50,317 nt of DNA from an uncultured Candidatus Saccharibacteria bacterium (lineage in GTDB: Bacteria; Patescibacteriota; Minisyncoccia; 2-02-FULL-40-12), in assembly GCA_964368135.1 (NCBI GenBank), contig CAYIZI010000003.1:1-50317 (forward strand), written 5' to 3'. Every line of letters begins with the position of its first letter. Positions within the stretch are counted from its first letter, which is position 1. The notes under the pieces were generated by a model. The model made no database searches and was not told the origin of the DNA. It worked only from the letters and a program-made list of their open reading frames with translations. Shown here one piece after another: positions 2,746-49,400 of this stretch. A program made the translations under genes and the position numbers.

Positions 2746-2781
2746 TTGTTTTTTGTTCATTACAACTTAGGAGAAAATGCA

Positions 2782-4665
2782 ATGAAAAGATGGCTATTGA
2801 CTCTCAGCGCCGCACTTGTGTTTGCTGCTTTGTTTTTCTTTGTCCCAGGACTGTCGGCCTTACAGGTCTTGACTTGGGTTCAGAGATTCCCTTCGCAAAA
2901 TCCAGGAGCCAGATTTTTTCACAGCATGGCTTATGATGAAGCAAGAGGTGGGGCAGTACTCTTTGGCGGATTTACGGGCCAGGACGCTTTAGCCGACACC
3001 TGGGCTTGGAATGGCAGCGATTGGGTTCAGCGGTTCCCCGTTCAAAGCCCTCCAGTGAGATACAGTCATGCAATGGCATACGATGGCGCCCGCGAAGAGG
3101 TTGTGCTCTTTGGAGGATTTCCATTTCCTGCCGGGACACTTTTTTCTGATACCTGGCTCTGGAATGGTGTCAATTGGACACAATCGCCTACAAGCGGTCC
3201 TTCGCGCCGGGGCGCGCATTCAATGGCTTATGATTCTGGGCGTAGAGAAACGCTTTTGTTTGGCGGTTCAAGCCAGACTGGCGGGGTGCTTGGCGATACT
3301 TGGATTTGGAACGGTGCAAACTGGATTCAGTTGTTTCCAACTGAAGCGCCTCCGGCCCGGATGCTTTTTGGGATGGCCTATGATGAAGCAAGAGGAGAAG
3401 TTGTTTTATTCGGAGGCACGACGCTGATCGCCGGGCAAGTCTTTGGTGATACTTGGGTTTGGGATGGCATAAACTGGGCTCAAAAGTCGTCTATTCGTCT
3501 GCCTCCGGCCAGGCGAGACCACAAGATGGTTTACGACAGGGCACGCCAGAGGGTTGTTCTTTTCGGCGGGATCAGTAACGACATTGCATTTTCTGACACC
3601 TGGAGCTGGGATGGTTCAAACTGGACTGAAGAAGCACCGCTGGCAAATCCAGGGCCAAGAGCCAGATATGGTTTGGCTTTTGACTCAACCAGGAATGAGG
3701 CCGTCCTTTTTGGCGGGACCGGTTATTCTGCTGGGGTTGGCTTCGCTGACACCTGGGTTTGGAGTGAAGTTACCGTTCCGGATCCAGTCCCGATTGGGCC
3801 GGAGATTCATTACTTTGCTTTGGGCGATTCGGTGGCTTCGGGTCACGGGCTTATGGATGACGGAACTCCTTGCCGCCGTTCTGATTTGGCGTATCCAAGT
3901 AAAGTAGCCGAGCGCCTTAAGGAACGGTACAAAGAGGTTCACTTTACTTCTTTGGCTTGTTCAGGAGCGAGAGTGAATTTCCCGGTAGAATTTTCCGACC
4001 CACACAAGTTCTTTTCAAACCAAGTCAATGATGTTGTTAGTGCTTTGAGAAGGATTGACGGTGTCCCGACTGTCGTCACCATCACTATCGGTGCCAATGA
4101 CTTTGGGTGGACTGAACTTCGACAGTTCACAGATTTGTTGTATTTAAGCAACCTAAATCGGTTTCAGAGAATTGTGAACAGAATTGGTGCGTCTGTTAGA
4201 CGGACTCTTCGACAGCAGGTTCCCCGGCTTCTTAGGTTCCAGAATGTTACTGTTGTGTTGACCGAGTACCATAATCCGTTCAACACCAACAGTGTATTCT
4301 TTTTAGGACCCGGAGGCCGTTGCGGTTTAATTGAGTGCTATGACCGGACCGAGTACGCCATACATACTTTGAACAACGCAATTGTTCAAGCTTATGTTGA
4401 CTTGGGCCGGCCAAGCAATTTGAAGCTGACGCCTATTCATGGTTTGTTTCACGGTCACGAAAGCCCAAGGCCTTCGTGCGGTAACAATGGGCCAGAAGTA
4501 AACGATACTTGGGTGCAGTACAAGGATGATCCGGACTCAAATAGTTTCCCCTTCAGATTGGATTCGAGTTGGCGAGGGGATTGTATGCACCCTAATAGCC
4601 GAGGCACAGACTTTTACGCGGCTCAAGTTAACTCTGACTTGATTGGCTTGTCCTTTGGTGAGTAG
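2782..4665 (+). CDS. secreted Kelch-repeat beta-propeller fused to an SGNH/GDSL hydrolase
   Basis: ATG at 2782 is preceded by AGGAG; the track start at 2746 is an upstream TTG. A signal peptide is present. About six units of the form W-W-NG-x-W plus MAYD...VLFGG. C-terminal SGNH blocks: GDSVASG, GANDFG and DCMHPN. GC is high (58% in line 3001-3060). Confidence 0.8.
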   Translation: MKRWLLTLSAALVFAALFFFVPGLSALQVLTWVQRFPSQNPGARFFHSMAYDEARGGAVLFGGFTGQDALADTWAWNGSDWVQRFPVQSPPVRYSHAMAYDGAREEVVLFGGFPFPAGTLFSDTWLWNGVNWTQSPTSGPSRRGAHSMAYDSGRRETLLFGGSSQTGGVLGDTWIWNGANWIQLFPTEAPPARMLFGMAYDEARGEVVLFGGTTLIAGQVFGDTWVWDGINWAQKSSIRLPPARRDHKMVYDRARQRVVLFGGISNDIAFSDTWSWDGSNWTEEAPLANPGPRARYGLAFDSTRNEAVLFGGTGYSAGVGFADTWVWSEVTVPDPVPIGPEIHYFALGDSVASGHGLMDDGTPCRRSDLAYPSKVAERLKERYKEVHFTSLACSGARVNFPVEFSDPHKFFSNQVNDVVSALRRIDGVPTVVTITIGANDFGWTELRQFTDLLYLSNLNRFQRIVNRIGASVRRTLRQQVPRLLRFQNVTVVLTEYHNPFNTNSVFFLGPGGRCGLIECYDRTEYAIHTLNNAIVQAYVDLGRPSNLKLTPIHGLFHGHESPRPSCGNNGPEVNDTWVQYKDDPDSNSFPFRLDSSWRGDCMHPNSRGTDFYAAQVNSDLIGLSFGE

Positions 4666-5222: not shown

Positions 5223-5237
5223 AAAGATTTTTGCCAA

Positions 5238-5309
5238 TGGACCTGAGGGGATTTGAACCCCTGACCCCGCGAATGCCATTCGCGTGCTCTACCGCTGAGC
5301 TACAGGCCC
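5238..5309 (-). tRNA. tRNA-Ala (anticodon GGC)
   Basis: Acceptor GGGCCTG/CAGGTCC with the G3:U70 identity pair. Anticodon stem CGCGA/TCGCG with loop ATGGCAT. T arm AGGGG-TTCAAAT-CCCCT. Confidence 0.9.
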
Positions 5310-6601
5310 AGTAACCTCTCTCCAACCTTATAAATATCGCCGGCGCCCATTAAGATAATTACATAATTTTTGCCGAAATTAACCATTAAATAATCTACTA
5401 TTTTTCGAAAATTTTCAAGAGCTAAAACACGTCCCCCTTTTTGTTTTATTTTCTCTGCCAGAACTTTAGAGCTTATACTTCCGTCATCTTCTTCTCTGGC
5501 TTTGTAAATCGGCGCTAAGATTATTTTATCCGCCTCGTTAAAACTCTTTGCAAACTCGTTGAGTAGTAGTTTTGTCCGGCTGAAAAGATGGGGCTGGAAA
5601 ACGACTACTAATTTTTTATTAGGAAATTTTTCTCGGAAAGCTTTTAGAGTCGTTTTTATTTCGGTGGGGTGATGGGCATAATCATCATAAACTAAGGCGC
5701 CTATTTTAGTCTTGCCTTTGAATTCAAATCTTCGCCAAACCCCTTGGTAGTTTTTAAGCGCAGTAATTATTTTTTCTTCTGGAATTCCCAAAACCTTAGC
5801 CACTGCGAAAGCTGTCTTTGCGTTTTCAATGTTATGCTGACCTGGGAATTTAAGTTTGAAATTATTTTTAACTTTTGAGTAATTAATGATTTGGCACTTT
5901 GCCGATTTCAGAGCCGGTTTAACTTTTGGATCAACAGGATTACAGATTAGGAATCCGTCTTCGGGAATTTTTGAAACCAGTTCACTGAATGCGTTTTGAA
6001 TATCAACTAAGTTTTTATAATAATCCAAATGGTCAGCTTCAATATTAGTGATCACAAGAATTTTGGGCACGAGATTGAGAAAATGCCGTTGGTACTCGTC
6101 TGCTTCCGCGATAAAGTAATCACTTTTTCCAGCCCGAAAATTACTTTTGGTTTTGGTCCGAAGCGAGCCGACAATCGCGGTCGGATCTTTGCCTGCATCT
6201 TCAAGAATATCAACGAGCATGGCCGTGGTCGTGGTTTTGCCATGGGCCCCGGCAACGGCAATGAGATAATATTTATTGGCAATTTTACCAAGAGCCTGAA
6301 AATATGAGAGCACCGGTACTCCTTTTTGCTTGGCCGCTTCAATAATCGCTGGGTTCATTGTTAGCCAGGCGTCGCTAAAAATGTACAAATCAGCCTCGGG
6401 CAAATGTGTTGGATTTTGGTCCAGCGAGATCTGAACGCCCTGGCTTCGCAGTTCATCCAAAGTTTCCGGGCTCGGATTGTCATTTGTTCCTGAAATTTCT
6501 TTTTTCTCGTGAAGCAACAGCCGAGCAAGCGCTGAAATCCCAACTCCGCCAATGCCGATAAAATGGATTCGCTTTACATTAGATATATTGAATTTCTTCA
6601 T
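5300..6601 (-). CDS. murC: UDP-N-acetylmuramate--L-alanine ligase
   Basis: N-terminal GIGGVGISALA Rossmann motif and the Mur ligase P-loop GAHGKTTTT. 433 aa. The stop codon lies inside the tRNA-Ala 5' acceptor stem. Confidence 0.9.
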   Translation of the reverse strand: MKKFNISNVKRIHFIGIGGVGISALARLLLHEKKEISGTNDNPSPETLDELRSQGVQISLDQNPTHLPEADLYIFSDAWLTMNPAIIEAAKQKGVPVLSYFQALGKIANKYYLIAVAGAHGKTTTTAMLVDILEDAGKDPTAIVGSLRTKTKSNFRAGKSDYFIAEADEYQRHFLNLVPKILVITNIEADHLDYYKNLVDIQNAFSELVSKIPEDGFLICNPVDPKVKPALKSAKCQIINYSKVKNNFKLKFPGQHNIENAKTAFAVAKVLGIPEEKIITALKNYQGVWRRFEFKGKTKIGALVYDDYAHHPTEIKTTLKAFREKFPNKKLVVVFQPHLFSRTKLLLNEFAKSFNEADKIILAPIYKAREEDDGSISSKVLAEKIKQKGGRVLALENFRKIVDYLMVNFGKNYVIILMGAGDIYKVGERLLGL

Positions 6602-7580
6602 CTAAATTTATGCCGAATTTATTTTTAACTTTTTGTTTTAAGATTTTAGCCAGCTTTATTATTTCAGATGATTTGCCTTTGCCCGGATTAAAAATCAAAT
6701 TGCCATGATGCTTAGCTACTTTGATTCTTCCAACCTTCATTCCTTTAGCGCCGACTTCTTCCAGAAGATAACCAGTTGGCACCTTGCCGTGATTGACTTT
6801 GCTTTTGTCTATTTTTGATAAAAATTTTTGCCGCAGAGCCGGCCTTACATTATTAATAACAATATTTTTGAAAAAACTGCCTGGGCACAAAAGACCAGGC
6901 CAATATTTCTTTTCTCGCATTTTTATTATTTCTTTTGATGTTTTTTGAAGTTCCTTGGGATCGCCTTTTTTAAATTTGAACTCCGCCCCCAGAATTATCC
7001 AATCTTTTTTCCCTGCCCCATAGGAAGCCGGAGGCTTTCCTTCGGGGTTTTTAAAAATACTTTCCCGGTAACCAAAACGGCATTGTTTTTTTGAGAGCCA
7101 TTGAGTTTCCTTGCCGTTATAAATTTTCACTTTTGTCAGGCAATCTTTTATCTCTTGGCTGTAGGCGCCAGCCGAACCGTAAATCGCTCCGCCGATTGTG
7201 CCGGGAATCCCGGCCATTTTCTCCATTCCAGCCCAGCCAAACTGATTTAACTTATATATAAATGTAAGAAGATTATTTCCAGCGCCGACAAAAAATCTGT
7301 TTCCATTCTTTTCAAAATTTTTAATTTCATTTTTGATTACCAATCCGTTAAAACCCGAGTCAGACGGTACCAAATTTGAGCCGTCACCAATAATATACCA
7401 TTTAATTTTACTATCTTTTGCCCAGTTAATGGCCGAAATTAAATCATTTTCCTTTTTGGCAATAAAAAAATATTTGGCTGGCCCGCCAATTTTCATAGTC
7501 GTCAGTTTTTTAAGAGGATAATTTGTTAAAATCTTGGCTTTGGGAATCATTTTGGATGTTGATAACTTTTGTTGCACCAT
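6579..7580 (-). CDS. murB: UDP-N-acetylenolpyruvoylglucosamine reductase
   Basis: FAD-binding N-terminus (TTMKIGGPAKYF, GDGSNL) and a MurB C-terminal domain. An alternative start lies at 7550. It overlaps the murC start by 23 nt. Confidence 0.9.
   Translation of the reverse strand: MVQQKLSTSKMIPKAKILTNYPLKKLTTMKIGGPAKYFFIAKKENDLISAINWAKDSKIKWYIIGDGSNLVPSDSGFNGLVIKNEIKNFEKNGNRFFVGAGNNLLTFIYKLNQFGWAGMEKMAGIPGTIGGAIYGSAGAYSQEIKDCLTKVKIYNGKETQWLSKKQCRFGYRESIFKNPEGKPPASYGAGKKDWIILGAEFKFKKGDPKELQKTSKEIIKMREKKYWPGLLCPGSFFKNIVINNVRPALRQKFLSKIDKSKVNHGKVPTGYLLEEVGAKGMKVGRIKVAKHHGNLIFNPGKGKSSEIIKLAKILKQKVKNKFGINLDEEIQYI
7005..7051 (-). repeat. 47-nt in-frame hairpin element, copy in murB (peptide NPEGKPPASYGAGKK)
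   Basis: TTTTTTCCCTGCCCCATAGGAAGCCGGAGGCTTTCCTTCGGGGTTTT. This is the partner of 1634..1680. Confidence 0.75.
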
Positions 7581-7581
7581 T

Positions 7582-7599
7582 TATATCATATATGATATA
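7582..7599. promoter_or_regulatory. perfect 18-bp palindrome in the murB/murA divergent gap (candidate operator)
   Basis: TATATCATATATGATATA equals its own reverse complement. It occupies most of the 32-nt gap between the murB ATG (7580) and the HTH-murA ATG (7613). Confidence 0.5.
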
Positions 7600-7612
7600 T
7601 AAACTGAAAACA

Positions 7613-9088
7613 ATGAGCAATCAAATTACACAAAGAGATATTGGTAAGATGATAATTACTCGACGGACAGAACTCGGCATGACACAAAGTGCCCTTGCTA
7701 AGTTACTCCATACGAGTCAAAGTGCAGTAGCTCGTATTGAGAAGGGTGAGCAAAATCTTACAACTGAGACGCTTGTTAAAATAAGCGGAGCACTTAAGAA
7801 AGACCTCGCTTCTCTTCTAAGCGGCGAATCAAGTTTTTTTATTGAGGGTGGTCATACACTGGAAGGAAAAATTCGGGTACAGGGTGCTAAGAACTCTGCT
7901 CTGAAAATTCTTGCTGCTACACTTCTTTATAAAAGTCCGGTTACTATTCGAAACCTTCCACTTGTTGAAGACATATTCCGTATGATTGAACTTTTAGAAG
8001 ATCTTGGGGCTAAGGTACGCTGGATCGGCGAACGAAGCGTGGAGGCGGATACTTCTGGAGTGAGAAATTATAAGTTGAATCCCGCAATTGCCAAACGTTT
8101 TCGAGGTTCAATTGTACTTGTTGGGCCGCTATTGGCACGATTAGGTAAAGCTATTTTCCCTCACCCTGGTGGATGTGTTATTGGCGAACGCCCAATAGAT
8201 CTTTTTTTGAAGGGGTGGAAGAGTATGGGCGCCAGAGTGAGTAAGAGTGATTCAGGATATAATATTATACTCAAAAATCCTCTTAGTATTGATTATTTCT
8301 TTCGACACGTGAGTGTTACTAGCACCGAGACCTTGATGTTAACTGCAGCCATTCTCGATGGCAAGACCGTATTGCGGAATAGTGCTATGGAGCCGGAAAT
8401 TCCTCACCTTGCCGATTTTTTGAATAAATCCGGCGCAGCGATTACAGGCGCTGGAACGCACACAATAGAGATGACTGGCACTAGAGGATCTTTACTTACC
8501 GCCCGAAAACCATTTAATGTTTTGCCCGATAGAATTGAGACCGCAAATCTTTTGGTACTCGGCGCTCTTTTAGGCAAGAAGGTGGTTATTGAAAATTGTG
8601 TACCTCTTCATGTTCGCCAGATGACTGATACATTGCGTGAGGCAGGAGTTTTAATTGAAGAAGGCGTTAACTCTTTGGTAGTACACAAACCTAGGACACT
8701 AAATAGTATTTCAATACGTACGCATGAGTATCCAGGGTTTGTAACTGACTTCCAGGCACCGTTTACAGTATTGCTTACTCAAGCTTGTGGCGAAAGTACT
8801 GTTTTTGAAACAATCTTTGACGGACGTTTGAATTATTCCGAAGATTTAAACCGCATGGGCGCGCACATCATTATGCATAATCCTTATCGTATTTCTGTAT
8901 CAGGACCTTCTGAACTTCGTGGCCGCAAAATTGAGAGTCCTGACTTGCGAGCTGGTCTTGCTTTTGTAATTGCCGCACTCGTTGCAAAAGGGAAATCTGT
9001 GATTAGCAATATTTACCAGATTGACCGCGGCTATGAACGAATTGATCAAAGATTAAAAGTTCTTGGTGCTAAAATTTCTCGAGGATAA
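7613..9088 (+). CDS. murA: XRE-type HTH domain fused to UDP-N-acetylglucosamine 1-carboxyvinyltransferase
   Basis: About the first 70 aa match the HTH_3 pattern (RRTELGMTQSALAKLLHTSQSAVARIEKGEQN). They continue without a stop into MurA (GAKNSALKILAA). The catalytic-loop Cys is retained (HPGGCVIGERPIDLF). The ATG at 7613 is preferred over the track TTG at 7523, which overlaps murB. Confidence 0.85.
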   Translation: MSNQITQRDIGKMIITRRTELGMTQSALAKLLHTSQSAVARIEKGEQNLTTETLVKISGALKKDLASLLSGESSFFIEGGHTLEGKIRVQGAKNSALKILAATLLYKSPVTIRNLPLVEDIFRMIELLEDLGAKVRWIGERSVEADTSGVRNYKLNPAIAKRFRGSIVLVGPLLARLGKAIFPHPGGCVIGERPIDLFLKGWKSMGARVSKSDSGYNIILKNPLSIDYFFRHVSVTSTETLMLTAAILDGKTVLRNSAMEPEIPHLADFLNKSGAAITGAGTHTIEMTGTRGSLLTARKPFNVLPDRIETANLLVLGALLGKKVVIENCVPLHVRQMTDTLREAGVLIEEGVNSLVVHKPRTLNSISIRTHEYPGFVTDFQAPFTVLLTQACGESTVFETIFDGRLNYSEDLNRMGAHIIMHNPYRISVSGPSELRGRKIESPDLRAGLAFVIAALVAKGKSVISNIYQIDRGYERIDQRLKVLGAKISRG

Positions 9089-10871: not shown

Positions 10872-11033
10872 ATGACAAAGTGCAAAAAATGCGGGATGAA
10901 AACTGATGGCTATAAGTGCGAGCTTTGCGGGGCCGAATCCGAGAAGCACGACCCCAAGCATTCTTGCGGGGGCGAGCATTGCCTGCCCAAGTGCTCCGGT
11001 TGCGGCCAGGCCGAAACAAAGTGCACCTGTTAG
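10872..11033 (+). CDS. 53-aa cysteine-rich mini-protein (10 Cys), below the ORF-track cut-off
   Basis: Hand translation: MTKCKKCGMKTDGYKCELCGAESEKHDPKHSCGGEHCLPKCSGCGQAETKCTC. CxxC pairs suggest a zinc-ribbon or metallothionein-like fold. The minus-strand track ORF 10539..10979 that covers it looks spurious. Confidence 0.55.
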   Translation: MTKCKKCGMKTDGYKCELCGAESEKHDPKHSCGGEHCLPKCSGCGQAETKCTC

Positions 11034-11131: not shown

Positions 11132-12226
11132 GTGAGGACTCATCTTCGGATTCTCGTCGGCTTGTTTGGGTTTTTGGTTTTCGGCGGCCCTGCTTTGCTT
11201 CGCAGTCAGAATCCGGCAAGTCACTCGGTACCCGAGTATCTTTGCCAATCAATGAAAGGATATGATCGGGCGATGTGCCTACATGGCGGCGATGGCAACC
11301 CCCAGGGCCCGTTGGCTAACCGCATTCCGGTCATCTTCATCCACGGCTGGAATTCCAAGGAAGTAGCAGGCGAGCCCGGCCTCCAAGTTTGGTCGGGGTT
11401 GGGCAGTCATCTTTACTACAGCCCCTGGTTCAAAGATAACTACAAAATGTACTTTCTTCTGTATTGGAGCAACATTCAAGGCTGGACTTTGAGAGATATG
11501 GGTTTGACTTTCCGTTCTTTGATTGAACAGATTGACCGGGCCGACCCGGATTTTAGAGGAAAGCCCCTAATTTTAATCGGCTACAGCATGGGCGGTTTGA
11601 TTGCCAGGTCTTACATGCAGGAGTTCAGGCCCGGTTCAAGCGGACGTAACGGAGACAGGGTTTTGAGATTGATTACCCTGGGTACGCCGCATCATGGTTC
11701 TCCGTTTGCCAATGGCCCGGCTCGGGATAATAAGGCCGGCGGCGTATGGCTTGAGACTATGCACCTGGTCATTGACGGCGGTCTTTTCGGCTTTGATATC
11801 CGCTGGGATATGGATAACCGTTATGACCTTCACTGGGATAACTATGATGGGCTGTTCGACTACGAAAGGTTTCCTGAAAACAGCATCTGGATGGAATGGC
11901 TGAACTCCGGCGACACGTTTGAGAGAAAAATCGTGGCCTACGGCGGCAAGGTAAGTCAGTTGGGCCAAATCAAGGACTGCGCTTTGGGGGCAGAGGGATC
12001 AGCCTGCTTCACGGCGATAATGAACGGAGCTCTCGGCATTTCCGAGAGCGACGGCTTTGTCCCGTTGAAAAGCGCGCTCTTTGATCCCTGCCAGGACTGC
12101 CTCGCCACTCATGTTTTTGAAGATTACGACCATAATGAGATTGTCCGCGGCAAGCCTCGACTTTTTGGGGAAACGGAGCCGCTCTTTGAGGGCGTCGCGA
12201 ATGATTTACTCAGTTTGGTTCGTTAA
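11132..12226 (+). CDS. secreted alpha/beta-hydrolase (lipase/esterase-like)
   Basis: GTG start after GGAGGGAGAGG. Signal peptide present. IFIHGW, nucleophile elbow GYSMGG and LGTPHHGS. GC is 62% in line 11281-11340. Confidence 0.75.
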   Translation: MRTHLRILVGLFGFLVFGGPALLRSQNPASHSVPEYLCQSMKGYDRAMCLHGGDGNPQGPLANRIPVIFIHGWNSKEVAGEPGLQVWSGLGSHLYYSPWFKDNYKMYFLLYWSNIQGWTLRDMGLTFRSLIEQIDRADPDFRGKPLILIGYSMGGLIARSYMQEFRPGSSGRNGDRVLRLITLGTPHHGSPFANGPARDNKAGGVWLETMHLVIDGGLFGFDIRWDMDNRYDLHWDNYDGLFDYERFPENSIWMEWLNSGDTFERKIVAYGGKVSQLGQIKDCALGAEGSACFTAIMNGALGISESDGFVPLKSALFDPCQDCLATHVFEDYDHNEIVRGKPRLFGETEPLFEGVANDLLSLVR

Positions 12227-12249
12227 GGCGAGGACTTGTTCCTCGCCTT
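12225..12249 (+). terminator. hairpin terminator after the lipase gene
   Basis: AAGGCGAGGA-CTTGT-TCCTCGCCTT followed by T-rich sequence. Confidence 0.6.
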
Positions 12250-12254
12250 TCGCT

Positions 12255-12283
12255 TTGACTTTCTCCATTATTAGTCGTATACT
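12255..12283 (+). promoter_or_regulatory. sigma70-like promoter (TTGACT-17-TATACT)
   Basis: Read directly, about 45 nt upstream of the 12329 ATG. Confidence 0.45.
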
Positions 12284-12328
12284 ATCTTCTTAAGCACCTT
12301 TTGAGCCGGTTTTCCTACGGAGGTCCAT

Positions 12329-13231
12329 ATGAGAGTTTTGAATGCGTTGTTTCTCGGCGGCGCCATCTTGATCTGGTTTGGCTATCCGGCCATGGTTTTT
12401 GGCCAGGAACAACAGTTTAGGGTCATGGTTCAGATGGCTAATATCCGGCTTGAGCCGACCACCTCAAGTCAGATAGTTGGTCGGGCAAAGGCTGGAGCCT
12501 TGCTGACAGTTGTTAAAGAACTCGGAGACTGGGTGAGGATTTATCTTCCGGAAGATGGGAATCTCCAGAGAGTGGGGCATATCTTCAAGTCTTTGGGGGT
12601 TATTGAGAGAGCGGCCGAACCGGTAGTAAGGCCGGAGCGGGCTTCTGGGCCGGCCCCAAAGCTTTTGCCTGTTCCTGTTTCGGTTTCTGAGCCGGAACCA
12701 GCACCTCAGCCTTCGGCGCCAGCAGCTGCTTCAACTCCGGCAGAACCACAGGTAATCGTTGAGCCGGCTTCACAGCCGAACCGACCTATCCAAGCTGATC
12801 AGCCAAAGGCTCCGGGAGGCTTCGGCGCCGGCCTCCAATTGGCGGCGGCTCCGGGCGGGGCGGTTCCGAGCATTCTCTACGACCTGAACGAGCGGCTGAC
12901 CGTCAACGGCGCCATTGGTTTTTACTACGGCGCCGCAACCGGTTTTATGGGTGAACTTCTCTACCGGTTTCCCAGGCCACCGAAAAATCCTCCGTCAGAT
13001 GCTTCTTTCGAGCCGTATCTCGGCGGTGGGTTAATCTTTGTTTCGGTGAATCCGGGGTTCGGTCTTTCCAGATCATACACTGGCTTCATCGGCTCCGGCG
13101 GGACGTTTCTGACTTTCAGGAAGATTCCCCGCTGGCGGTTTAGCGGCGATATAAATCTGGTTCAGTTTGATGTCGAAAGGGTTGCGGTCGCCGGCATTGG
13201 TATCCGGCTCGGCGGTCACTACTTTTTCTGA
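12329..13231 (+). CDS. signal peptide + SH3b-like domain + Pro-rich linker + OMP-like beta-barrel tail
   Basis: GGAGG Shine-Dalgarno site. The N-terminal segment ANIRLEPTTSSQIVGRAKAGALLTVVKELGDWVRIYL is SH3b-like. The C-terminal ~130 aa show alternating-hydrophobic strands and end in GGHYFF (aromatic terminal Phe), as in OMP beta-barrels. GC is 60% in line 12661-12720. Confidence 0.65.
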   Translation: MRVLNALFLGGAILIWFGYPAMVFGQEQQFRVMVQMANIRLEPTTSSQIVGRAKAGALLTVVKELGDWVRIYLPEDGNLQRVGHIFKSLGVIERAAEPVVRPERASGPAPKLLPVPVSVSEPEPAPQPSAPAAASTPAEPQVIVEPASQPNRPIQADQPKAPGGFGAGLQLAAAPGGAVPSILYDLNERLTVNGAIGFYYGAATGFMGELLYRFPRPPKNPPSDASFEPYLGGGLIFVSVNPGFGLSRSYTGFIGSGGTFLTFRKIPRWRFSGDINLVQFDVERVAVAGIGIRLGGHYFF

Positions 13232-24706: not shown

Positions 24707-24740
24707 AAATTAAAATTGCCGTTAACGGCAATTTTAATTT
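24707..24740. terminator. perfect 34-nt palindrome abutting the tRNA-Ser 3' end
   Basis: AAATTAAAATTGCCGTT/AACGGCAATTTTAATTT, giving 17-bp arms with no spacer. Confidence 0.6.
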
Positions 24741-34057: not shown

Positions 34058-34092
34058 AATATTTAAACATTTAAATATTTAAATGTGAGAAG

Positions 34093-37221: not shown

Positions 37222-37355
37222 TTTTTTGTTCAAGAGCGAAGCGATTGATTACAAAAAGTTACCCAGCCCTCTAAGCATCTGAAAAAGTATTTAGCATAGA
37301 GGGCTGGGTGCTCAAATTTGTATCTGCTCGCTGTGCTCGCAGACAAATTTGGCAG
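37222..37355 (+). repeat. three-hairpin palindromic element, downstream copy (pilin-pilD gap)
   Basis: The same central stem (37261..37276 pairs with 37294..37309) around a 17-nt loop. The R hairpin is CAAATTTGT...ACAAATTTG, with compensatory changes relative to the upstream copy. The 61-nt right arms are 50/61 identical. Confidence 0.7.
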
Positions 37356-38143
37356 TTTTTTTTATTTTCATTTTTGGCCTGGCAGTAGGCAGCTTTCTAA
37401 ATGTCCTGATTCACCGATTACCAAAAGGGGAGTCAATCCTTGGTTTTTCAAAATGTCAGCATTGCCGTAGGACTATTTATTGGTCCGACAACATCCCGGT
37501 TTTAAGTTTTTTGATTTTGAAAGGTAAGTGCCGGCACTGCGGCCAGGAAATTTCCTGGCAGTATCCGTTGGTTGAGTTATTAACCGGTTTTTTGTTTCTG
37601 TTTTCTTTCTGGGTCTACCCCGAAGAGCCTATTTTTTTGATTTATATCTTGTTTCTTATGAGTTTATTGGTTGTGATTGGTTTAATTGATTTAAAAAAAT
37701 TCTTAATATTGGACAGTCTTATTTTGACAGGCCTTATCGGGAGTCTTATTTTTATGTTTTTGTTTAATGTCTCATGCTTAAAGTTTCAGGAACTGACCAG
37801 CTGTTCCTTTAGAGATTCCTTATTCGGGGTCTTATTTTTTGCCGGTTTGTTTTTGTTAATTTTTTTAATGTCTAAGGGCCGGGGGATCGGCTTTGGCGAT
37901 GTTAAATTCTCGGCTTTACTGGGCTTTATATTTGGCTTGATAAATTCAATCAACCTCTTCTACCTGACCTTTTTAATCGGTTTTATTATTGCTATAATAT
38001 TATTGGCCTTTAAAAAATCAGATTTAAAGACCGAAATTCCCCTTGGTTCAATAATGGCCGGCACAGGCATTTTGCTTTTGTTATCAGGTTTTAATCTTTT
38101 TGGTATAATAGATATAAATTTCATTTTAAGATTATTTTACTAA
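37349..38143 (+). CDS. pilD: prepilin peptidase (A24 family) PilD
   Basis: GSFLNVLIHRLP. Zinc-finger CQHC...CRHC. Catalytic GFGDVKF. The TTG start is embedded in the repeat element. Confidence 0.85.
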   Translation: MAVFFIFIFGLAVGSFLNVLIHRLPKGESILGFSKCQHCRRTIYWSDNIPVLSFLILKGKCRHCGQEISWQYPLVELLTGFLFLFSFWVYPEEPIFLIYILFLMSLLVVIGLIDLKKFLILDSLILTGLIGSLIFMFLFNVSCLKFQELTSCSFRDSLFGVLFFAGLFLLIFLMSKGRGIGFGDVKFSALLGFIFGLINSINLFYLTFLIGFIIAIILLAFKKSDLKTEIPLGSIMAGTGILLLLSGFNLFGIIDINFILRLFY

Positions 38144-46422: not shown

Positions 46423-49400
46423 TTGGAAGCCATCGAAAGGGAAGGAAAAAAGTTTATAGCTGCTTCGGTATTAGCCGAAGAATTTGGTTATGATCGGAAT
46501 CACATTGGGTTATTAGCTCGCCAAGGAAAAGTTGAAGGAATTTTAGTGGAGAAAAAGTGGTACGTAACTAAAGAATCGCTTGAAAGTTATCGAATCAAAG
46601 CAGCTAAAAACAGAAAGGAAGTCGCCCGCCAAGGCATTCAACTGACTCGAAGGCCAATAGCTCCTTCGTTAGCTTCTTCCCATATAGCCGATGGGACCAG
46701 AGCCATCAGGACATATCTTAGCTCCAGCAATTTGAAACTGGGTTTAAGATATGGCCTGGTGGCTCTTTTTATTTTACTGATAAGCGCGACCAGCCTTAGC
46801 TATTACAAAAATCCGGCCCTTGGCCATAAGACTGGTAAACTTATTAAAGATTCTTTTGATTTGGTTGGCGATACTATTAAACTTCCTTCCTTAACATTAT
46901 TCGAAGCTGCCAAAAACTTAGACACAATTACCCAAGTAGTTACTAAGCCAGCCCGAAGGCTTTTATATGGCGAGCTAATAAAGTTTGAGTCTCCGAAAGT
47001 TATTTCAAATTTTGATTCAGTTTCTAAACCAGCAAATAATTTTAAACGAAATCTGTTTTCTCTTTTGTTAAACAGCAGGAATCTTTTTAAAGAGTATTCT
47101 TATTCTGTTAGAAATGAATACAAAGATTCTCTTTTCGCTATTCATAATGAGCTTATAATCCCATTAGCTGATGCTATTTCTGGCCCCATAACTTATCTTT
47201 TAACTCATCTTTTTGGAAAAGAAGAGCCTAAAGAAGATTTAGCCGAGGAATTAATTCAGAGAATTAAAGAATTAGAGCAGCAGTTAAAAGATGGTCGGTT
47301 CTTTATCTTGTCAAATAACAACATCATAAGAGAAATTGTTGAGAGAGTAGTAGTTGAAACCCAAACTCCAGCCCCGCCTCAAACAGTCCAGCCCTTACCG
47401 GCCATTACTTTTAACCAGGCCCTAGAACAACGTTTTTCAGCGATTGAAAATACTTTGCTTTCTTTTGAGGAAAGATTTTTGAAAACCCCAACTATTATAT
47501 CGCCAATCCCAACTTATTCTGGTGGCGGTAATACTGGAATGACAATTTTAAACCCGGCTACTATTGATAGCGAAACTGTAAAAGCCGTAACTTTGACTGT
47601 CAGCGGCAGCGGAACGATCAGCAAAAACTTAACAATTAACGGAGATTTAACCGTTGATACCAACACTTTCTATGTAGATTCAACAAATAATCGGGTCGGT
47701 ATCTTAACCACCAGTCCGGAAACTGCTTTTGAAGTAATCGGCCTGGCTTCAGTCAGCCAACTGGCTGGCGCTGGTCTGACTGATTGCGATGGCGGCACCC
47801 AATCACTTAAATGGGATGGGACAAATAAGGTATTTTCCTGCGGTAGCGGGGGAGTATCTTCTAATTCTATTGACTTCGATGAAATCGTCGCCTCGGCCAC
47901 CTTTGACACTAACTGGGATATTGCTTTAAACAGCAAGAATCTTGATATTGGGGATGCTAAGTTCTTTATTGAGGGCTCTTCCGGTAAAATCGGTATTGGC
48001 ACCAGACAATTAACCGAAGTTTTAGAGATTTCGGGCAATGCTTCGGTTTCAGGCGGTTTCTTTGGTCCCTCTTTCCCGGCCACTGATTGTTCTACTGAAT
48101 CTCAAACAATTTTATGGAACTCAACTACTGGTAAATTTTCCTGCGGTACTGATGCTTCTGGCGGTGGTGGCGGTGCTTTTCAAGTTAGAGAATACCCACC
48201 CGGTGTAACCGTTTCTGATATCGCCACTATCTCTTTTGATGCCGGGGCTTTTAATATCACTGCTTCAGCCGGCACTGATGCGGTGGTTAAGCTTGACTAT
48301 ACCAATGGCCCGGCTTCAAGAGCGGCTGACCAGACCATTACCGGCAACTGGCTCTTTAACAATGACGTTGAGTTCCAGGATAACTCTCTCACCCGCTTCA
48401 AGTTCGCCTCCACTTCCCTTGGCCGGTTCGGCTTTGGCGACACTTCTCCGGAAACCTTTTTTGAGATTGCGAGTTCTTCAGGGATCGTGGCGAGTATCTC
48501 TGATACCTTCTTTGTTGACGCAACGAACAAATTTATCGGCATCGGGACGACGGGGCCGACTACCGTTCTGCATGTGTCCGGTCCGAGTAGCGGTGGAACT
48601 ATTTGGAACTCTGGGTTGAGAGTTGACCGAGATGGTGGAGGTTCTGTTAATCAATACACGGTCATAAACACGAATGGCGGTGCGACGCAGATCATCGGAG
48701 TTGATTTAACTGCCGGTGCTGGTAATGGGGCAGAAATTATTTTCAATCGCAGCAATACAGGTTCCGGTACACCTTCAGTAAGTATGCGTATTAGTTCTTC
48801 CGGCAACGTCGGCATCGGCGCCGCCCCTTCCACCAAATTTGAAGTCCAGGGCACGGCTTCGGCCTCATACCTTCTGACCGGCAATACTCTGCAGGTTGGA
48901 GGCTTCGCATCGGCGGCATACTCAAGATTCGGGACTTCGACTCTTACTGCCAATCCAGCCGGCAACTGGATAACCGGAAGCAGTGACCTTCTTGTTTCAG
49001 GTGATCTGTACGGCGTCGGTTCAATCGCCTTTGCCGGTCCGGCATCAATGTCTAACACGTTATGGGTATCGCCGGGAGGGTATTCCGGCAACGTCGGGAT
49101 TGGGACGACAAGTCCACAAGCAAAGCTGCATGTTTCAGGTGGCACAATATTATTGGACCATAACAAATACTTGCAAGGCAAAGATTCAGGTGGGACCGTT
49201 AGGGACATTATTGGGACAATTTTCTCTAGCCAAGACATTTTTGATCTTGCTGGAACTGCGGCGTATAACGTACGTATCGCAGCTGGCGGAGGAGATATCT
49301 TATTCCCTGGTTCTGGAGTTTGGAAATCTACAGGTTTCGTCGGCATCGGGACCACTGCCCCCTCCACCAAGTTTGAAGTCCAGGGCACGGCCTCGGCCTC

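What the first reader, a model, noticed from the sequence alone, without database searches (positions are those of the whole stretch)
7523..9088. XRE-family HTH fused to MurA, with a perfect 18-bp palindrome in the murB/murA divergent promoter
**The fusion.** The MurA ORF begins with about 70 aa that match the HTH_3 (XRE) pattern (GKMIITRRTELGMTQSALAKLLHTSQSAVARIEKGEQNLT..L.KI). It runs without interruption into a full-length MurA that keeps the catalytic-loop cysteine (GGCVIGERP).

**The candidate operator.** The 32-nt gap to the divergently transcribed murB is almost filled by TATATCATATATGATATA (7582..7599), which is a perfect palindrome. XRE regulators are dimeric and bind such sites.

**Interpretation.** An enzyme for the first committed step of peptidoglycan synthesis, tethered to a DNA-binding domain and facing a palindromic site shared with murB-murC, suggests direct enzyme-mediated autoregulation (a trigger-enzyme arrangement). 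I am not aware of this architecture being characterised.
Basis: partly seen in the sequence, partly recalled or inferred. Interest (0 to 1): 0.72.

Follow-up and report, generated by a model that had tools for sequence, protein, structure and literature searches.

The report
Self-repressing MurA enzyme with fused HTH
The first enzyme of cell-wall synthesis (MurA) is fused here to a DNA-binding domain whose palindromic target sits on the gene's own promoter, and the same uncharacterised fusion-plus-site arrangement recurs in at least 130 other bacterial assemblies.

Summary
ATG 7613..9088 encodes 491 aa: an XRE-type HTH (PF01381, 50 bits), a flexible linker, then a complete canonical MurA (TIGR01072 437 bits, cut-off 392.7) with all catalytic residues. 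The perfect palindrome TATATCATATATGATATA lies at 7582-7599.

- **Spread.** An HTH-MurA(-like) family of 505-530 aa occurs in many Patescibacteria and in cultured Actinomycetota (Janibacter, Blastococcus, Modestobacter, Kineosphaera). Databases name it only generically.
- **Site.** In about 150 of 165 loci one copy of an 18-bp dyad, TAT[AC][TG]CAYATRTG[AC][TG]ATA, lies just upstream of the fusion gene and almost never elsewhere. The arms change symmetrically, and the arm type tracks substitutions in the recognition helix. The right arm forms the gene's own -10, mostly 4-30 nt before the start codon.
- **Mosaic.** The window's small clade (six protein clusters) pairs a canonical MurA (55-62% identical to unfused Paceibacterota MurA) with the widespread family's HTH and operator. 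HTH identity to that family is 53%; enzyme identity is 29%.

Best reading: autorepression. Here and in at least 10 other loci the site also covers the divergent murB promoter. Substrate control of DNA binding is untested. I found no publication on this.

The parts
7613..9088 (+). HTH-MurA fusion gene (491 aa plus stop); probable start ATG 7613
   Evidence: Pfam HTH_3 plus EPSP_synthase. TIGR01072 murA 437 bits, above the 392.7 cut-off. N-terminus aligns with relatives. AF2 mean pLDDT 89.9.
7631..7819 (+). XRE/Cro-C1-type five-helix HTH domain (aa 7-69); recognition helix SQSAVARI at aa 36-43
   Evidence: PF01381 50.2 bits at aa 17-66. AF2 helices 7-20, 25-32, 36-43, 51-60 and 65-69. Nearest solved relatives are dimeric DNA binders: HigA, P22 C2, C.BclI, HipB.
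7808..7831 (+). Flexible linker between the HTH and MurA (aa 66-73)
   Evidence: AF2 pLDDT below 50 for residues 66-71. The first MurA strand begins at aa 74.
7832..9085 (+). Canonical MurA catalytic domain (aa 74-491)
   Evidence: phmmer E 5.7e-93 to PDB 5bq2. Foldseek target-normalised TM-score 0.94-0.96, rmsd 1.5-1.8 A to solved MurA. K22, N23, R91, C115, R120, D305, D369, R371 and R397 (E. coli numbering) all kept.
8168..8194 (+). Catalytic loop GGCVIGERP; Cys188 codon 8174-8176 (equivalent to E. coli Cys115)
   Evidence: Read directly from the sequence. Column counts. Low pLDDT at 188-192, as expected for the mobile loop.
7582..7599 (.). 18-bp perfect palindrome TATATCATATATGATATA: inferred operator of the fused HTH
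   Evidence: Unique in the window. Identical or near-identical site upstream of the fusion gene in about 150 of 165 related loci, with no equal match elsewhere in any locus whose site has 6 or fewer mismatches, except L135. Symmetric arm covariation. Covaries with the recognition helix.
7593..7601 (+). Putative extended -10 (TGATATATA) of the HTH-murA promoter, inside the right arm of the palindrome. An alternative hexamer is TATAAA at 7598-7603. The start codon lies 9-11 nt downstream, so the leader is very short or absent.
   Evidence: In 81 low-GC loci the consensus is T12 G13 n T A T A n T (74% T at the last position), with a median of 13 nt from site end to start codon. Examples. The simple sigma-70 scan, which needs a -35, did not call it. 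This feature is inferred.
7580..7588 (-). Putative extended -10 (TGATATAAA on the - strand) for murB-murC, inside the left arm of the palindrome
   Evidence: Mirror image of the + strand element. In L027 and L050 the same arm gives TGATATAAT or TGATATGAT followed by 6 nt and then the murB ATG. This feature is inferred.
6579..7550 (-). murB (UDP-N-acetylenolpyruvoylglucosamine reductase); probable start ATG 7550 (longest ORF reaches 7580)
   Evidence: Pfam FAD_binding_4 plus MurB_C. Start inferred from L004 murB and from the position of the -10.
5300..6601 (-). murC (Mur ligase); overlaps murB by 23 nt, so probably co-transcribed with it
   Evidence: Pfam Mur_ligase, Mur_ligase_M and Mur_ligase_C. 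Coordinates.

Best explanation
The gene encodes a catalytically competent MurA that carries its own repressor module.

**Proposed mechanism.** The N-terminal XRE-type HTH, joined by a flexible linker of about 8 residues, binds as a pair to the 18-bp dyad TATATCATATATGATATA (half-site centres about 11 bp apart). The right arm of the dyad is the extended -10 (TGnTATAnT) of the gene's own promoter, which gives an mRNA with a very short or absent leader. Occupancy would therefore block RNA polymerase and hold MurA at a set level (negative autoregulation). In this window the left arm is the mirror-image -10 for the divergent murB-murC. One site would then co-repress the first three committed steps of peptidoglycan precursor synthesis.

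**Origin.** The HTH-plus-operator module is shared with a large family of HTH-MurA-like proteins in Patescibacteria and Actinomycetota. In the window's small clade it has been grafted onto a canonical murA.

**Shown here:** the domain architecture, intact catalytic residues, the conservation, position and dyad covariation of the site, and its overlap with -10-like sequences.

**Inferred:** DNA binding by this HTH, repression rather than activation, the transcription start sites, and dimerisation.

**Speculative:** that substrate, product or fosfomycin binding (the open/closed MurA states) modulates DNA binding.
For: **Architecture**
- HTH_3 and murA both score above their curated cut-offs.
- AF2 gives a confident five-helix HTH, a disordered linker and a MurA fold. 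Foldseek target-normalised TM-score to solved MurA is 0.94-0.96.

**The site is tied to the fusion gene**
- Among 165 loci with an HTH-MurA relative, the best match to the 18-mer within -150..+40 of the start has 0 mismatches in 16 loci, 1 in 24, 2 in 32, 3 in 38 and 4 in 29.
- In every locus whose site has 6 or fewer mismatches, except L135, no equal or better match occurs elsewhere in the locus.
- The degenerate motif TATNNCRYATRYGNNATA hits once per locus in 76 loci, always upstream of the gene, with one extra hit in L027. It does not occur in the unfused murA loci L167-L170.
- In the window it hits once; 0.00 hits are expected by chance.

**Dyad selection**
- A2, T3, C6, G13 and T17 are invariant.
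- The variable pairs 4-15 and 5-14 are complementary in 88% of sites. Shuffles give 60% and 47%, with maxima of 70% and 62%.

**Protein-DNA covariation**
- TATAGCA/TGCTATA operators go with helix TTQSVIARIEKG.
- TATATCA/TGATATA operators go with TSQSA[VI]ARIE[KS]G.
- TATCTCA/TGAGATA operators go with TSQSA[VI]ARIEQG.

**The site is independent of neighbourhood**
- It is present with a divergent murB, with a divergent mreB, and with no divergent gene at all (L001, L009 and the Actinomycetota).

**Promoter overlap**
- In low-GC loci the right arm plus 2 nt reads TGnTATAnT.
- In the four Actinomycetota loci read (L071, L065, L041, L028), T17 A18 nnn T forms TANNNT, followed by 7-8 nt and then the start codon, the classic leaderless layout.
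- For the two ATG-start loci looked up (L071 Janibacter, L065 Kineosphaera), the protein read from the predicted start is exactly the deposited RefSeq protein.

**Loss goes with decay**
- The two HTH-less proteins nested inside the window clade (P0006, P0008) keep only degraded, no longer symmetric versions of the site.
Against: - There is no experimental binding, transcription-start or expression data for any member.
- Half of the dyad is itself a generic extended -10. Where a divergent gene exists, two back-to-back promoters would also give some symmetry.
- The operator/helix covariation follows phylogeny and reflects only a few independent events.
- MurA is usually monomeric and XRE domains alone dimerise weakly, so how two HTHs are brought together is unknown.
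- AF2 shows no fixed contact between the HTH and the enzyme (linker pLDDT below 50). This gives no structural hint of allosteric coupling.
- The + strand -10 in the window (TATATA or TATAAA) is imperfect, and the simple promoter scan did not call it.
Confidence: 0.72

Rival explanations
1. Ligand-gated trigger enzyme. DNA binding by the HTH is switched by the catalytic state of MurA: UDP-GlcNAc or PEP bound, the UDP-MurNAc/PEP-Cys 'dormant' complex, or the fosfomycin adduct. Transcription of murA and murB-murC would then report precursor supply. This extends the best explanation and does not exclude it.
For: - All catalytic and ligand-binding residues are kept in the window protein.
- From established knowledge, MurA undergoes a large open-to-closed domain movement and binds UDP-MurNAc tightly. 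Solved complexes are listed (3su9, 3swd, 8d84).
- Precedents exist for enzyme-repressor fusions gated by their own ligands (BirA, NadR, PutA).
- The HTH is attached by only about 8 residues to the first strand of MurA.
Against: - Nothing computed here tests it.
- The linker is predicted to be disordered, and no HTH-enzyme interface is predicted.
- In the large family the canonical Asp369 is Ala in 126 of 127 members. The enzyme half may therefore behave differently there, yet the operator is equally conserved.
Confidence: 0.3
2. The palindrome is only a pair of overlapping divergent extended -10 promoters (TGnTATAAT on each strand). The HTH would have another target or no DNA target at all.
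For: - Each arm plus its flank matches TGnTATAnT.
- In loci with long intergenic regions, mreB has its own separate ATTATAGCA (= TGCTATAAT) element.
- An operator-like site also precedes a valS-like gene in L027.
Against: - Full dyads occur where there is no divergent gene: L001 (nested in a dyad of about 38 bp), L009 (22-bp perfect dyad after a terminator), and Actinomycetota loci where the upstream gene is on the same strand.
- The central CATATATG and the fixed arm spacing are conserved, which two independent promoters would not need.
- Arm variants covary with the recognition helix.
- The motif is absent upstream of unfused murA and decays where the HTH was lost.
Confidence: 0.1
3. The HTH is a protein-interaction module like the cytoplasmic HTH of RodZ. 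It would tether MurA to MreB, whose gene is the commonest neighbour, and would not bind DNA.
For: - mreB is adjacent in 41 loci and follows the fusion gene in the window clade.
- One Actinomycetota member gives a weak RodZ hit (NF008109, 22.7 bits).
Against: - The window HTH gives no RodZ hit in NCBIfam and no HTH_25 hit in Pfam at the thresholds used. The one RodZ hit in the family is far below its cut-off (22.7 against 208).
- The nearest solved relatives are all DNA-binding repressors or antitoxins.
- This idea does not explain the conserved dyad or its covariation with helix 3.
- The window has no mreB within 50 kb.
Confidence: 0.04
4. Artefact: a frameshift or mis-assembly has joined a small XRE gene to murA.
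For: None beyond the general possibility in metagenome assemblies.
Against: - The same uninterrupted frame occurs in 134 complete ORFs from independent assemblies, and in isolate genomes with RefSeq proteins of 509-513 aa.
- The linker sequence is conserved within the clade.
Confidence: 0.01

Closest known systems
BirA (biotin protein ligase / bio operon repressor)
   Same: One polypeptide has an N-terminal HTH and a biosynthetic-pathway enzyme. It binds a dyad operator that overlaps divergent promoters of its own pathway genes.
   Different: - BirA has a winged HTH, not an XRE fold.
- Its dimerisation and DNA binding are known to be triggered by its reaction intermediate, biotinyl-AMP. No such gating is shown here.
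- BirA does not regulate its own gene from the bio operator, whereas here the operator sits on the fusion gene's own -10.
NadR and BzdR (XRE-type HTH fused N-terminally to an enzyme or enzyme-like domain)
   Same: Same class of HTH (Cro/C1, HTH_3) at the N-terminus, followed by a linker and a metabolic-enzyme fold. Both act as repressors of the related pathway. The BzdR-type model NF006015 is among the weak hits to this HTH.
   Different: - The partner domains differ: NMN adenylyltransferase/ribosylnicotinamide kinase in NadR, and a shikimate-kinase-like sensor in BzdR.
- BzdR's partner domain is a sensor and is not an active pathway enzyme.
- No relation to cell-wall synthesis.
- The hits are far below the family cut-offs (26-30 bits against 204), so this protein is not a member.
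Controller (C) proteins of restriction-modification systems and phage cI/C2 repressors
   Same: Small XRE HTH dimers that bind dyad operators overlapping their own promoters. They are often expressed from leaderless mRNAs. C.BclI, C.AhdI and P22 C2 are among the nearest solved relatives of this HTH.
   Different: They are stand-alone regulators with no enzyme attached. Many also activate at low concentration. The sequence similarity is only at the generic family level (E about 1e-3).
Known MurA control systems (CwlM in mycobacteria; ReoM/ReoY-ClpCP and PASTA kinases in Firmicutes; LpxC-MurA in Pseudomonas)
   Same: They act on the same control point, the first committed step of peptidoglycan synthesis (papers listed: PMC4946905, PMC7286690, PMC9995270).
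   Different: All of these act after translation, through partner proteins. Here the control would be transcriptional and built into the enzyme itself.
Unfused canonical MurA of Paceibacterota
   Same: The enzyme domain is 55-62% identical. The gene order murA-mreB-holB-frr is the same as in the window clade's relatives L001 and L002.
   Different: The unfused genes have no HTH, sit 10-18 nt behind proS inside an operon, and have no palindrome.

Membership tests
MurA, UDP-N-acetylglucosamine 1-carboxyvinyltransferase (TIGR01072 equivalog) | Whole-protein score above the curated equivalog cut-off | tested here: met
   437.1 bits against a cut-off of 392.7. The wider HTH-MurA-like family scores 303-337 bits. 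It fails the equivalog cut-off and passes only the subfamily model NF006873 (cut-off 297).
MurA, UDP-N-acetylglucosamine 1-carboxyvinyltransferase (TIGR01072 equivalog) | Catalytic and substrate-binding residues (E. coli numbering: K22, N23, R91, C115, R120, D305, D369, R371, R397) | tested here: met
   All are present in the window clade (5 of 5 sequences). In the wide family D369 is Ala in 126 of 127 members and P121 is Thr.
MurA, UDP-N-acetylglucosamine 1-carboxyvinyltransferase (TIGR01072 equivalog) | Two-domain inside-out alpha/beta barrel fold | tested here: met
   AF2 mean pLDDT 89.9. Foldseek target-normalised TM-score 0.94-0.96 and rmsd 1.5-1.8 A to 5bq2, 6q0a, 1uae and others.
MurA, UDP-N-acetylglucosamine 1-carboxyvinyltransferase (TIGR01072 equivalog) | Enolpyruvyl transfer from PEP to UDP-GlcNAc; fosfomycin sensitivity through the Cys | not testable with these tools
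   Needs an enzyme assay.
XRE / Cro-C1 HTH (Pfam PF01381 HTH_3) | Score above the gathering threshold | tested here: met
   50.2 bits against 23. Family members score 43-56 bits.
XRE / Cro-C1 HTH (Pfam PF01381 HTH_3) | Five-helix bundle with helices 2-3 forming the HTH | tested here: met
   AF2 helices 7-20, 25-32, 36-43, 51-60 and 65-69, with block pLDDT of 77-90 over residues 11-60.
XRE / Cro-C1 HTH (Pfam PF01381 HTH_3) | Sequence-specific binding to a dyad-symmetric operator | tested here: inconclusive
   Strong comparative support, but there is no binding experiment.
Trigger enzymes / bifunctional enzyme-repressors (BirA, NadR, PutA type) | An active enzyme domain and a DNA-binding domain in one polypeptide | tested here: met
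   By sequence and predicted fold. Activity itself was not assayed.
Trigger enzymes / bifunctional enzyme-repressors (BirA, NadR, PutA type) | Operator at promoters of genes of the same pathway | tested here: inconclusive
   The conserved dyad lies on its own -10. It is shared with a divergent murB in the window, in L004 and in about 10 further loci, or with a divergent mreB in others. Binding is inferred.
Trigger enzymes / bifunctional enzyme-repressors (BirA, NadR, PutA type) | DNA binding controlled by substrate, product or catalytic state | not testable with these tools
   Needs EMSA or reporter assays with and without UDP-GlcNAc, PEP, UDP-MurNAc and fosfomycin.
RodZ-type cytoskeletal HTH | RodZ-type HTH signature (HTH_25, or NF008109 above its cut-off), followed by a transmembrane segment | tested here: not met
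   The window protein gives no RodZ hit at E of 0.001 or better in NCBIfam and no HTH_25 hit at E of 0.01 or better in Pfam. The best family hit is 22.7 bits against a cut-off of 208. The HTH is followed directly by MurA.
Type II antitoxins with XRE HTH (HipB, HigA, PezA, Y4mF) | Score above the family cut-off, and an adjacent toxin gene | tested here: not met
   The best hit is TIGR03070 at 38.8 bits against 71.65. The neighbours are murB and tRNA-Arg/cca, with no toxin.

The most novel reading that the evidence does not exclude
HTH-MurA would be a true trigger enzyme. The ligand state of MurA (UDP-GlcNAc/PEP against the UDP-MurNAc-locked form) would set how strongly its HTH occupies a bidirectional promoter-operator. 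It would thereby tune murA, murB-murC or mreB in bacteria that have very few transcription factors. The module would also be mobile: it moved between Patescibacteria and Actinomycetota, which are known hosts of Saccharibacteria, and within Paceibacterota it was grafted from a divergent MurA-like protein onto the canonical enzyme.
Probability: 0.3. Interest if true: 0.82.

Novelty: new member of a known kind. Interest (0 to 1): 0.68.

Why it matters
- **A new mode of MurA control.** MurA is the committed step of peptidoglycan synthesis, the target of fosfomycin, and a known hub of post-translational control. A version that carries its own repressor and sits on its own promoter would be a new, self-contained transcriptional control of cell-wall precursor supply.
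- **A rare regulatory handle in Patescibacteria.** The family is common in Patescibacteria, whose regulation is almost unknown. A sharply defined operator there is one of the few predicted regulator-site pairs that could be tested.
- **It can be tested now.** The family also occurs in culturable Actinomycetota (Janibacter, Blastococcus, Modestobacter, Kineosphaera), so the hypothesis is directly testable.
- **An example of module transfer.** The mosaic origin of the window's gene shows a promoter-operator-HTH cassette moving between paralogous enzymes.

Tried and rejected
- **Full-length protein search.** The MurA domain dominated the results, which made the fusion look confined to six clusters. 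The picture changed only when I searched with the N-terminal 100 aa.
- **Profile search with the N-terminal alignment.** It returned only fragments shorter than 200 aa, useful for source names only.
- **Exhaustive representative search.** Multi-HTH repeat proteins crowded the list. Only seven full-length family representatives of 488-517 aa were visible, so I could not get a family size from it.
- **Literature.** No paper on an HTH-MurA protein was found. The only trace is a table entry for 'HTH_3' as an EPSPS-associated domain. PMC12565409 on XRE palindromes matched only on an author name.
- **RNA explanations.** No Rfam hit in 7300-7900. The palindrome folds weakly as RNA (-7.3 kcal/mol, z = -1.0). 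The asymmetric arm variants are mismatches such as G-A and C-A, not wobble pairs.
- **RodZ-like tether and antitoxin readings.** Rejected on the family cut-offs and the gene context.
- **The 490-nt region upstream of the L001 gene.** It looked tRNA-like, but ARAGORN and Rfam found nothing.
- **Simple sigma-70 scan.** It did not call a promoter at the palindrome because it requires a -35. The extended -10 reading rests on the comparative logo instead.


Full report
**1. What is in the window**

The + strand ORF that the finding refers to runs from TTG 7523 to the stop at 9088. The N-terminus conserved among relatives begins at ATG 7613 (MSNQITQRDIGK...).

That 491-aa protein has two domain hits:
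- Pfam HTH_3 at aa 17-66 (50.2 bits, cut-off 23).
- EPSP_synthase at aa 78-480 (249.9 bits).

It also exceeds NCBI's murA equivalog cut-off (TIGR01072, 437.1 bits against 392.7).

AlphaFold2, run on a 51-sequence alignment, gives mean pLDDT 89.9. The model has:
- a five-helix N-terminal domain (helices 7-20, 25-32, 36-43, 51-60, 65-69);
- a disordered linker (residues 66-71, pLDDT below 50);
- a MurA fold that superposes on solved MurA structures with a target-normalised TM-score of 0.94-0.96 and rmsd 1.5-1.8 A.

No solved MurA carries an HTH. All residues known to matter for MurA catalysis are present, including the Cys of GGCVIGERP at codon 8174-8176. The residue numbering comes from an E. 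coli sequence that I supplied from memory.

The palindrome TATATCATATATGATATA is exactly at 7582-7599. It is unique in the window even with 3 mismatches allowed. murB (FAD_binding_4 plus MurB_C) and murC lie divergently upstream.

**2. Corrections to the observation**

- The deposited protein for this contig is 510 aa, starting at ATG 7556. The longest ORF starts at 7523. Both starts would put the palindrome inside coding sequence. The family alignment argues for 7613, as does the fact that the Janibacter RefSeq protein begins at the equivalent position.
- murB probably starts at ATG 7550 (MIPKAKILTNYPLKK...), as in the 82%-identical relative L004. The intergenic region is then 62 nt, not 32, with the dyad near its centre.
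- Perfect 18-bp palindromes are not rare in this window: there are 4, against 0.35 expected. The palindrome alone proves little.

**3. The fusion is widespread**

A full-length protein search made the fusion look confined to six 90%-identity clusters among thousands of unfused Patescibacteria MurA proteins. Searching public genomes and metagenomes with only the N-terminal 100 residues changed that picture.
- In GTDB species representatives, 528 candidate stretches were confirmed by tblastn. All 80 listed matches run through the HTH into the start of MurA.
- 295 more were confirmed in metagenomes.
- From the 165 loci held, I recovered 134 complete ORFs of 488-532 aa (median 508) with the same architecture.

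Hosts are Saccharibacteria, Paceibacterota, Kerfeldbacteria, Abawacabacteria and Taylorbacteria. They also include cultured Actinomycetota: Janibacter, Humibacillus, Kineosphaera, Piscicoccus, Blastococcus, Modestobacter, Occultella, Actinotalea and Nocardioides.

RefSeq and UniProt call these proteins 'helix-turn-helix domain-containing protein' or 'UDP-N-acetylglucosamine 1-carboxyvinyltransferase'. I found no paper that describes them. The only trace is a table listing HTH_3 as a 'promiscuous' domain associated with PF00275 (other searches). A frameshift or mis-assembly is therefore excluded.

**4. The palindrome is a conserved dyad tied to the fusion gene**

*Position and uniqueness.*
- In the 165 loci, the best match to the 18-mer within -150..+40 of the predicted start has 4 or fewer mismatches in 139 loci and 6 or fewer in 158.
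- In every locus whose site has 6 or fewer mismatches, except L135, no equal or better match exists anywhere else in the locus.
- The degenerate pattern TATNNCRYATRYGNNATA hits once per locus in 76 loci, always at that place. The single exception is a second hit in L027. It never hits in four loci with unfused murA.

*Sequence conservation.* Positions A2, T3, C6, G13 and T17 are invariant across two phyla whose genomic G+C ranges from 0.30 to 0.77.

*Symmetric change.* The variable positions change symmetrically. Pairs 4-15 and 5-14 are complementary in 88% of sites, against 60% and 47% when arms are shuffled between loci. This gives three main classes:
- TATATCA/TGATATA
- TATAGCA/TGCTATA
- TATCTCA/TGAGATA

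*Match to the recognition helix.*
- The TATATCA class goes with TSQSA[VI]ARIE[KS]G.
- The TATAGCA class goes with TTQSVIARIEKG.
- The TATCTCA class goes with TSQSA[VI]ARIEQG.
- Hybrid operators go with mixed helices.

This covariation follows the phylogeny, so it reflects a few events and not a hundred independent ones. It is still what co-evolution of a dimeric reader with its half-sites would produce.

*Independence from gene context.* The dyad is present whatever lies upstream:
- a divergent murB (the window, L004 and about 10 Saccharibacteria/Paceibacterota loci);
- a divergent mreB;
- a same-strand gene followed by a terminator (L009);
- a 490-nt non-coding stretch (L001);
- a same-strand fadB-like gene (Actinomycetota).

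*Decay after HTH loss.* Two HTH-less proteins nest inside the window's clade (P0006, P0008). Upstream of their genes only degraded, asymmetric remnants remain.

**5. Relation to the promoter**

- **Low-GC loci.** The right arm plus two flanking bases reads T12 G13 n T A T A n T, an extended -10. The start codon lies a median of 13 nt after the site.
- **Actinomycetota.** In the four loci read, T17 A18 n n n T forms the TANNNT -10. It is followed by 7-8 nt and then the start codon, the classic leaderless layout. For the two ATG-start loci looked up (Janibacter L071, Kineosphaera L065), the protein read from the predicted start is exactly the deposited RefSeq protein.
- **The window.** The element is TGATATATA (7593-7601) or TATAAA (7598-7603), 9-11 nt before ATG 7613, with no Shine-Dalgarno sequence. 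On the other strand the mirror element TGATATAAA (7588-7580) points at murB.
- **L027 and L050.** The same arm is followed by exactly 6 nt and then the murB ATG.

A protein bound to the dyad would therefore occlude the -10 of its own gene and, where present, that of the divergent murB (and hence murC) or mreB. The transcription start sites are inferred, not measured. The simple sigma-70 scan, which demands a -35, did not call these elements.

**6. The window's gene is a mosaic**

A neighbour-joining tree of the enzyme domains has two deep clades. The window clade (window, L004, L002, L001/L088, L005) sits inside canonical Patescibacteria MurA. The widespread fusion family forms the other clade, with the Actinomycetota nested among Patescibacteria.

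| Comparison with the window protein | HTH identity | Enzyme-domain identity |
|---|---|---|
| Unfused Paceibacterota MurA | no HTH | 55-62% |
| Widespread fusion family (median) | 53% (up to 66%) | 28.7% |
| Within the window's own clade | 66-82% | 66-83% |

The widespread family keeps K22, N23, R91, C115, R120, D305, R331, R371 and R397. It has Ala for Asp369 in 126 of 127 members and Thr for Pro121. It passes only the MurA subfamily model.

Gene order agrees with this split:
- Unfused murA lies in proS-murA-mreB-holB-frr-rseP.
- Window-clade relatives have HTH-murA-mreB-holB-frr.
- The widespread family has holB and mreB divergent from HTH-murA-like, followed by priA and def.

The simplest account is that the promoter-operator-HTH cassette of the widespread family was recombined onto a canonical murA in an ancestor of the window clade. 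It was later lost again in some descendants. In the window the gene has also moved next to murB-murC. The window has no mreB and no second murA within 50 kb.

**7. Mechanism and its rivals**

*Best explanation (confidence about 0.7).* This is a bifunctional MurA whose HTH binds the dyad and represses its own promoter, which gives an mRNA with a very short or absent leader. In this window it would also repress the divergent murB-murC promoter.

*Unresolved.* Whether the catalytic or ligand state of MurA gates binding, which is the true trigger-enzyme idea, is open. The linker is predicted to be flexible and no interface is predicted. I put this at about 0.3.

*Rivals.*
- The dyad is only two back-to-back promoters (about 0.1). 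Against this are the dyads that have no divergent gene, the conserved centre, and the helix covariation.
- The HTH is a RodZ-like tether to MreB (about 0.04). Against this are the family cut-offs, the nearest solved relatives, and the operator evidence.
- An RNA hairpin. The fold is weak (z = -1.0), there is no Rfam hit, and the asymmetric variants are not wobble pairs.
- An assembly artefact (about 0.01).

**8. Comparison with known systems**

- It works like BirA, NadR, PutA and BzdR in being an enzyme, or enzyme-like domain, fused to a repressor domain.
- It works like controller proteins and phage repressors in being an XRE dimer sitting on the promoter of its own, often leaderless, gene.
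- It is a member of MurA and of the HTH_3 family by every feature I could test. It is not a member of the RodZ or antitoxin families.
- Known MurA regulation (CwlM, ReoM/ClpCP, LpxC) acts after translation through partner proteins. An operator-bound MurA would be a new mode of control at the same point.

**9. Verdict**

It is unproven for enzyme-state sensing, and it was wrong about rarity. The thing is best filed as a new, uncharacterised member of the enzyme-repressor kind. It comes with an unusually clean comparative case and with culturable hosts for testing. Interest 0.68.

Noticed in passing
window 24715-24732, 34068-34085, 37542-37559: Three further perfect 18-bp palindromes (4 in the window against 0.35 expected). 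ATTGCCGTTAACGGCAAT is the core of a hairpin of about 34 bp, between a gene end and tRNA-Ser, and looks like a terminator. CATTTAAATATTTAAATG is intergenic (34058-34092). GCCAGGAAATTTCCTGGC lies inside ORF 37349-38143.
   Followed up: partly
L027 7766-7783: A second operator-like dyad, TATAGCGTATATGATATA, lies 10 nt upstream of a valS-like ORF in a Saccharibacteria contig. It is the only extra hit of the degenerate motif in 170 loci. It could be a regulon member or just a look-alike promoter.
   Followed up: partly
window 7556-7612: The protein deposited for this contig is 510 aa and starts at ATG 7556. That start would overlap murB and place the operator in coding sequence, so it is probably mis-called. 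ATG 7613 fits the family.
   Followed up: yes
L003 5981-5998 and L006 about 2016-2033: Two unfused MurA proteins (P0006, P0008) nest inside the fused clade. Upstream of their genes are decayed remnants of the dyad. P0006 also keeps a linker-like N-terminal extension (MVKHISKVIATRGNRPSSF). This looks like secondary loss of the HTH.
   Followed up: partly
L021-L085 (Actinomycetota loci), e.g. L071 3972-4003: The Actinomycetota HTH-MurA-like clade nests among Patescibacteria in the tree. It keeps an AT-rich dyad in genomes of 65-77% G+C, which suggests transfer between phyla. This is of interest because Saccharibacteria live on Actinomycetota hosts. These genes sit between a fadB-like gene and dxs, not among cell-wall genes.
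   Followed up: partly
L001 3262-3310: Here the 18-mer is nested in a longer dyad of about 38 bp (ATCATATCC-TATATCATATATGATATA-GGATATGAT). A 490-nt non-coding stretch lies upstream. It looked tRNA-like but gave no ARAGORN or Rfam hit.
   Followed up: partly
window 2746-4665, 11132-13231, 48000-50317: Islands of 50-55% G+C in a contig of about 40% G+C. One carries a 639-aa repeat-rich ORF (Kelch-like repeats followed by a lipase-like C-terminal part, judged by eye). Others carry secreted-looking ORFs. They may be acquired DNA.
   Followed up: no
window 10872-11033: A 53-aa ORF with 11 Cys, including several CxxC motifs (MTKCKKCGMKTDGYKCELCG...), lies just after tRNA-Pro. It was not examined.
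   Followed up: no
window 5237-5310 and 5300-6601: The 3' end of murC overlaps tRNA-Ala by 11 nt on the same strand. murB and murC overlap by 23 nt.
   Followed up: no
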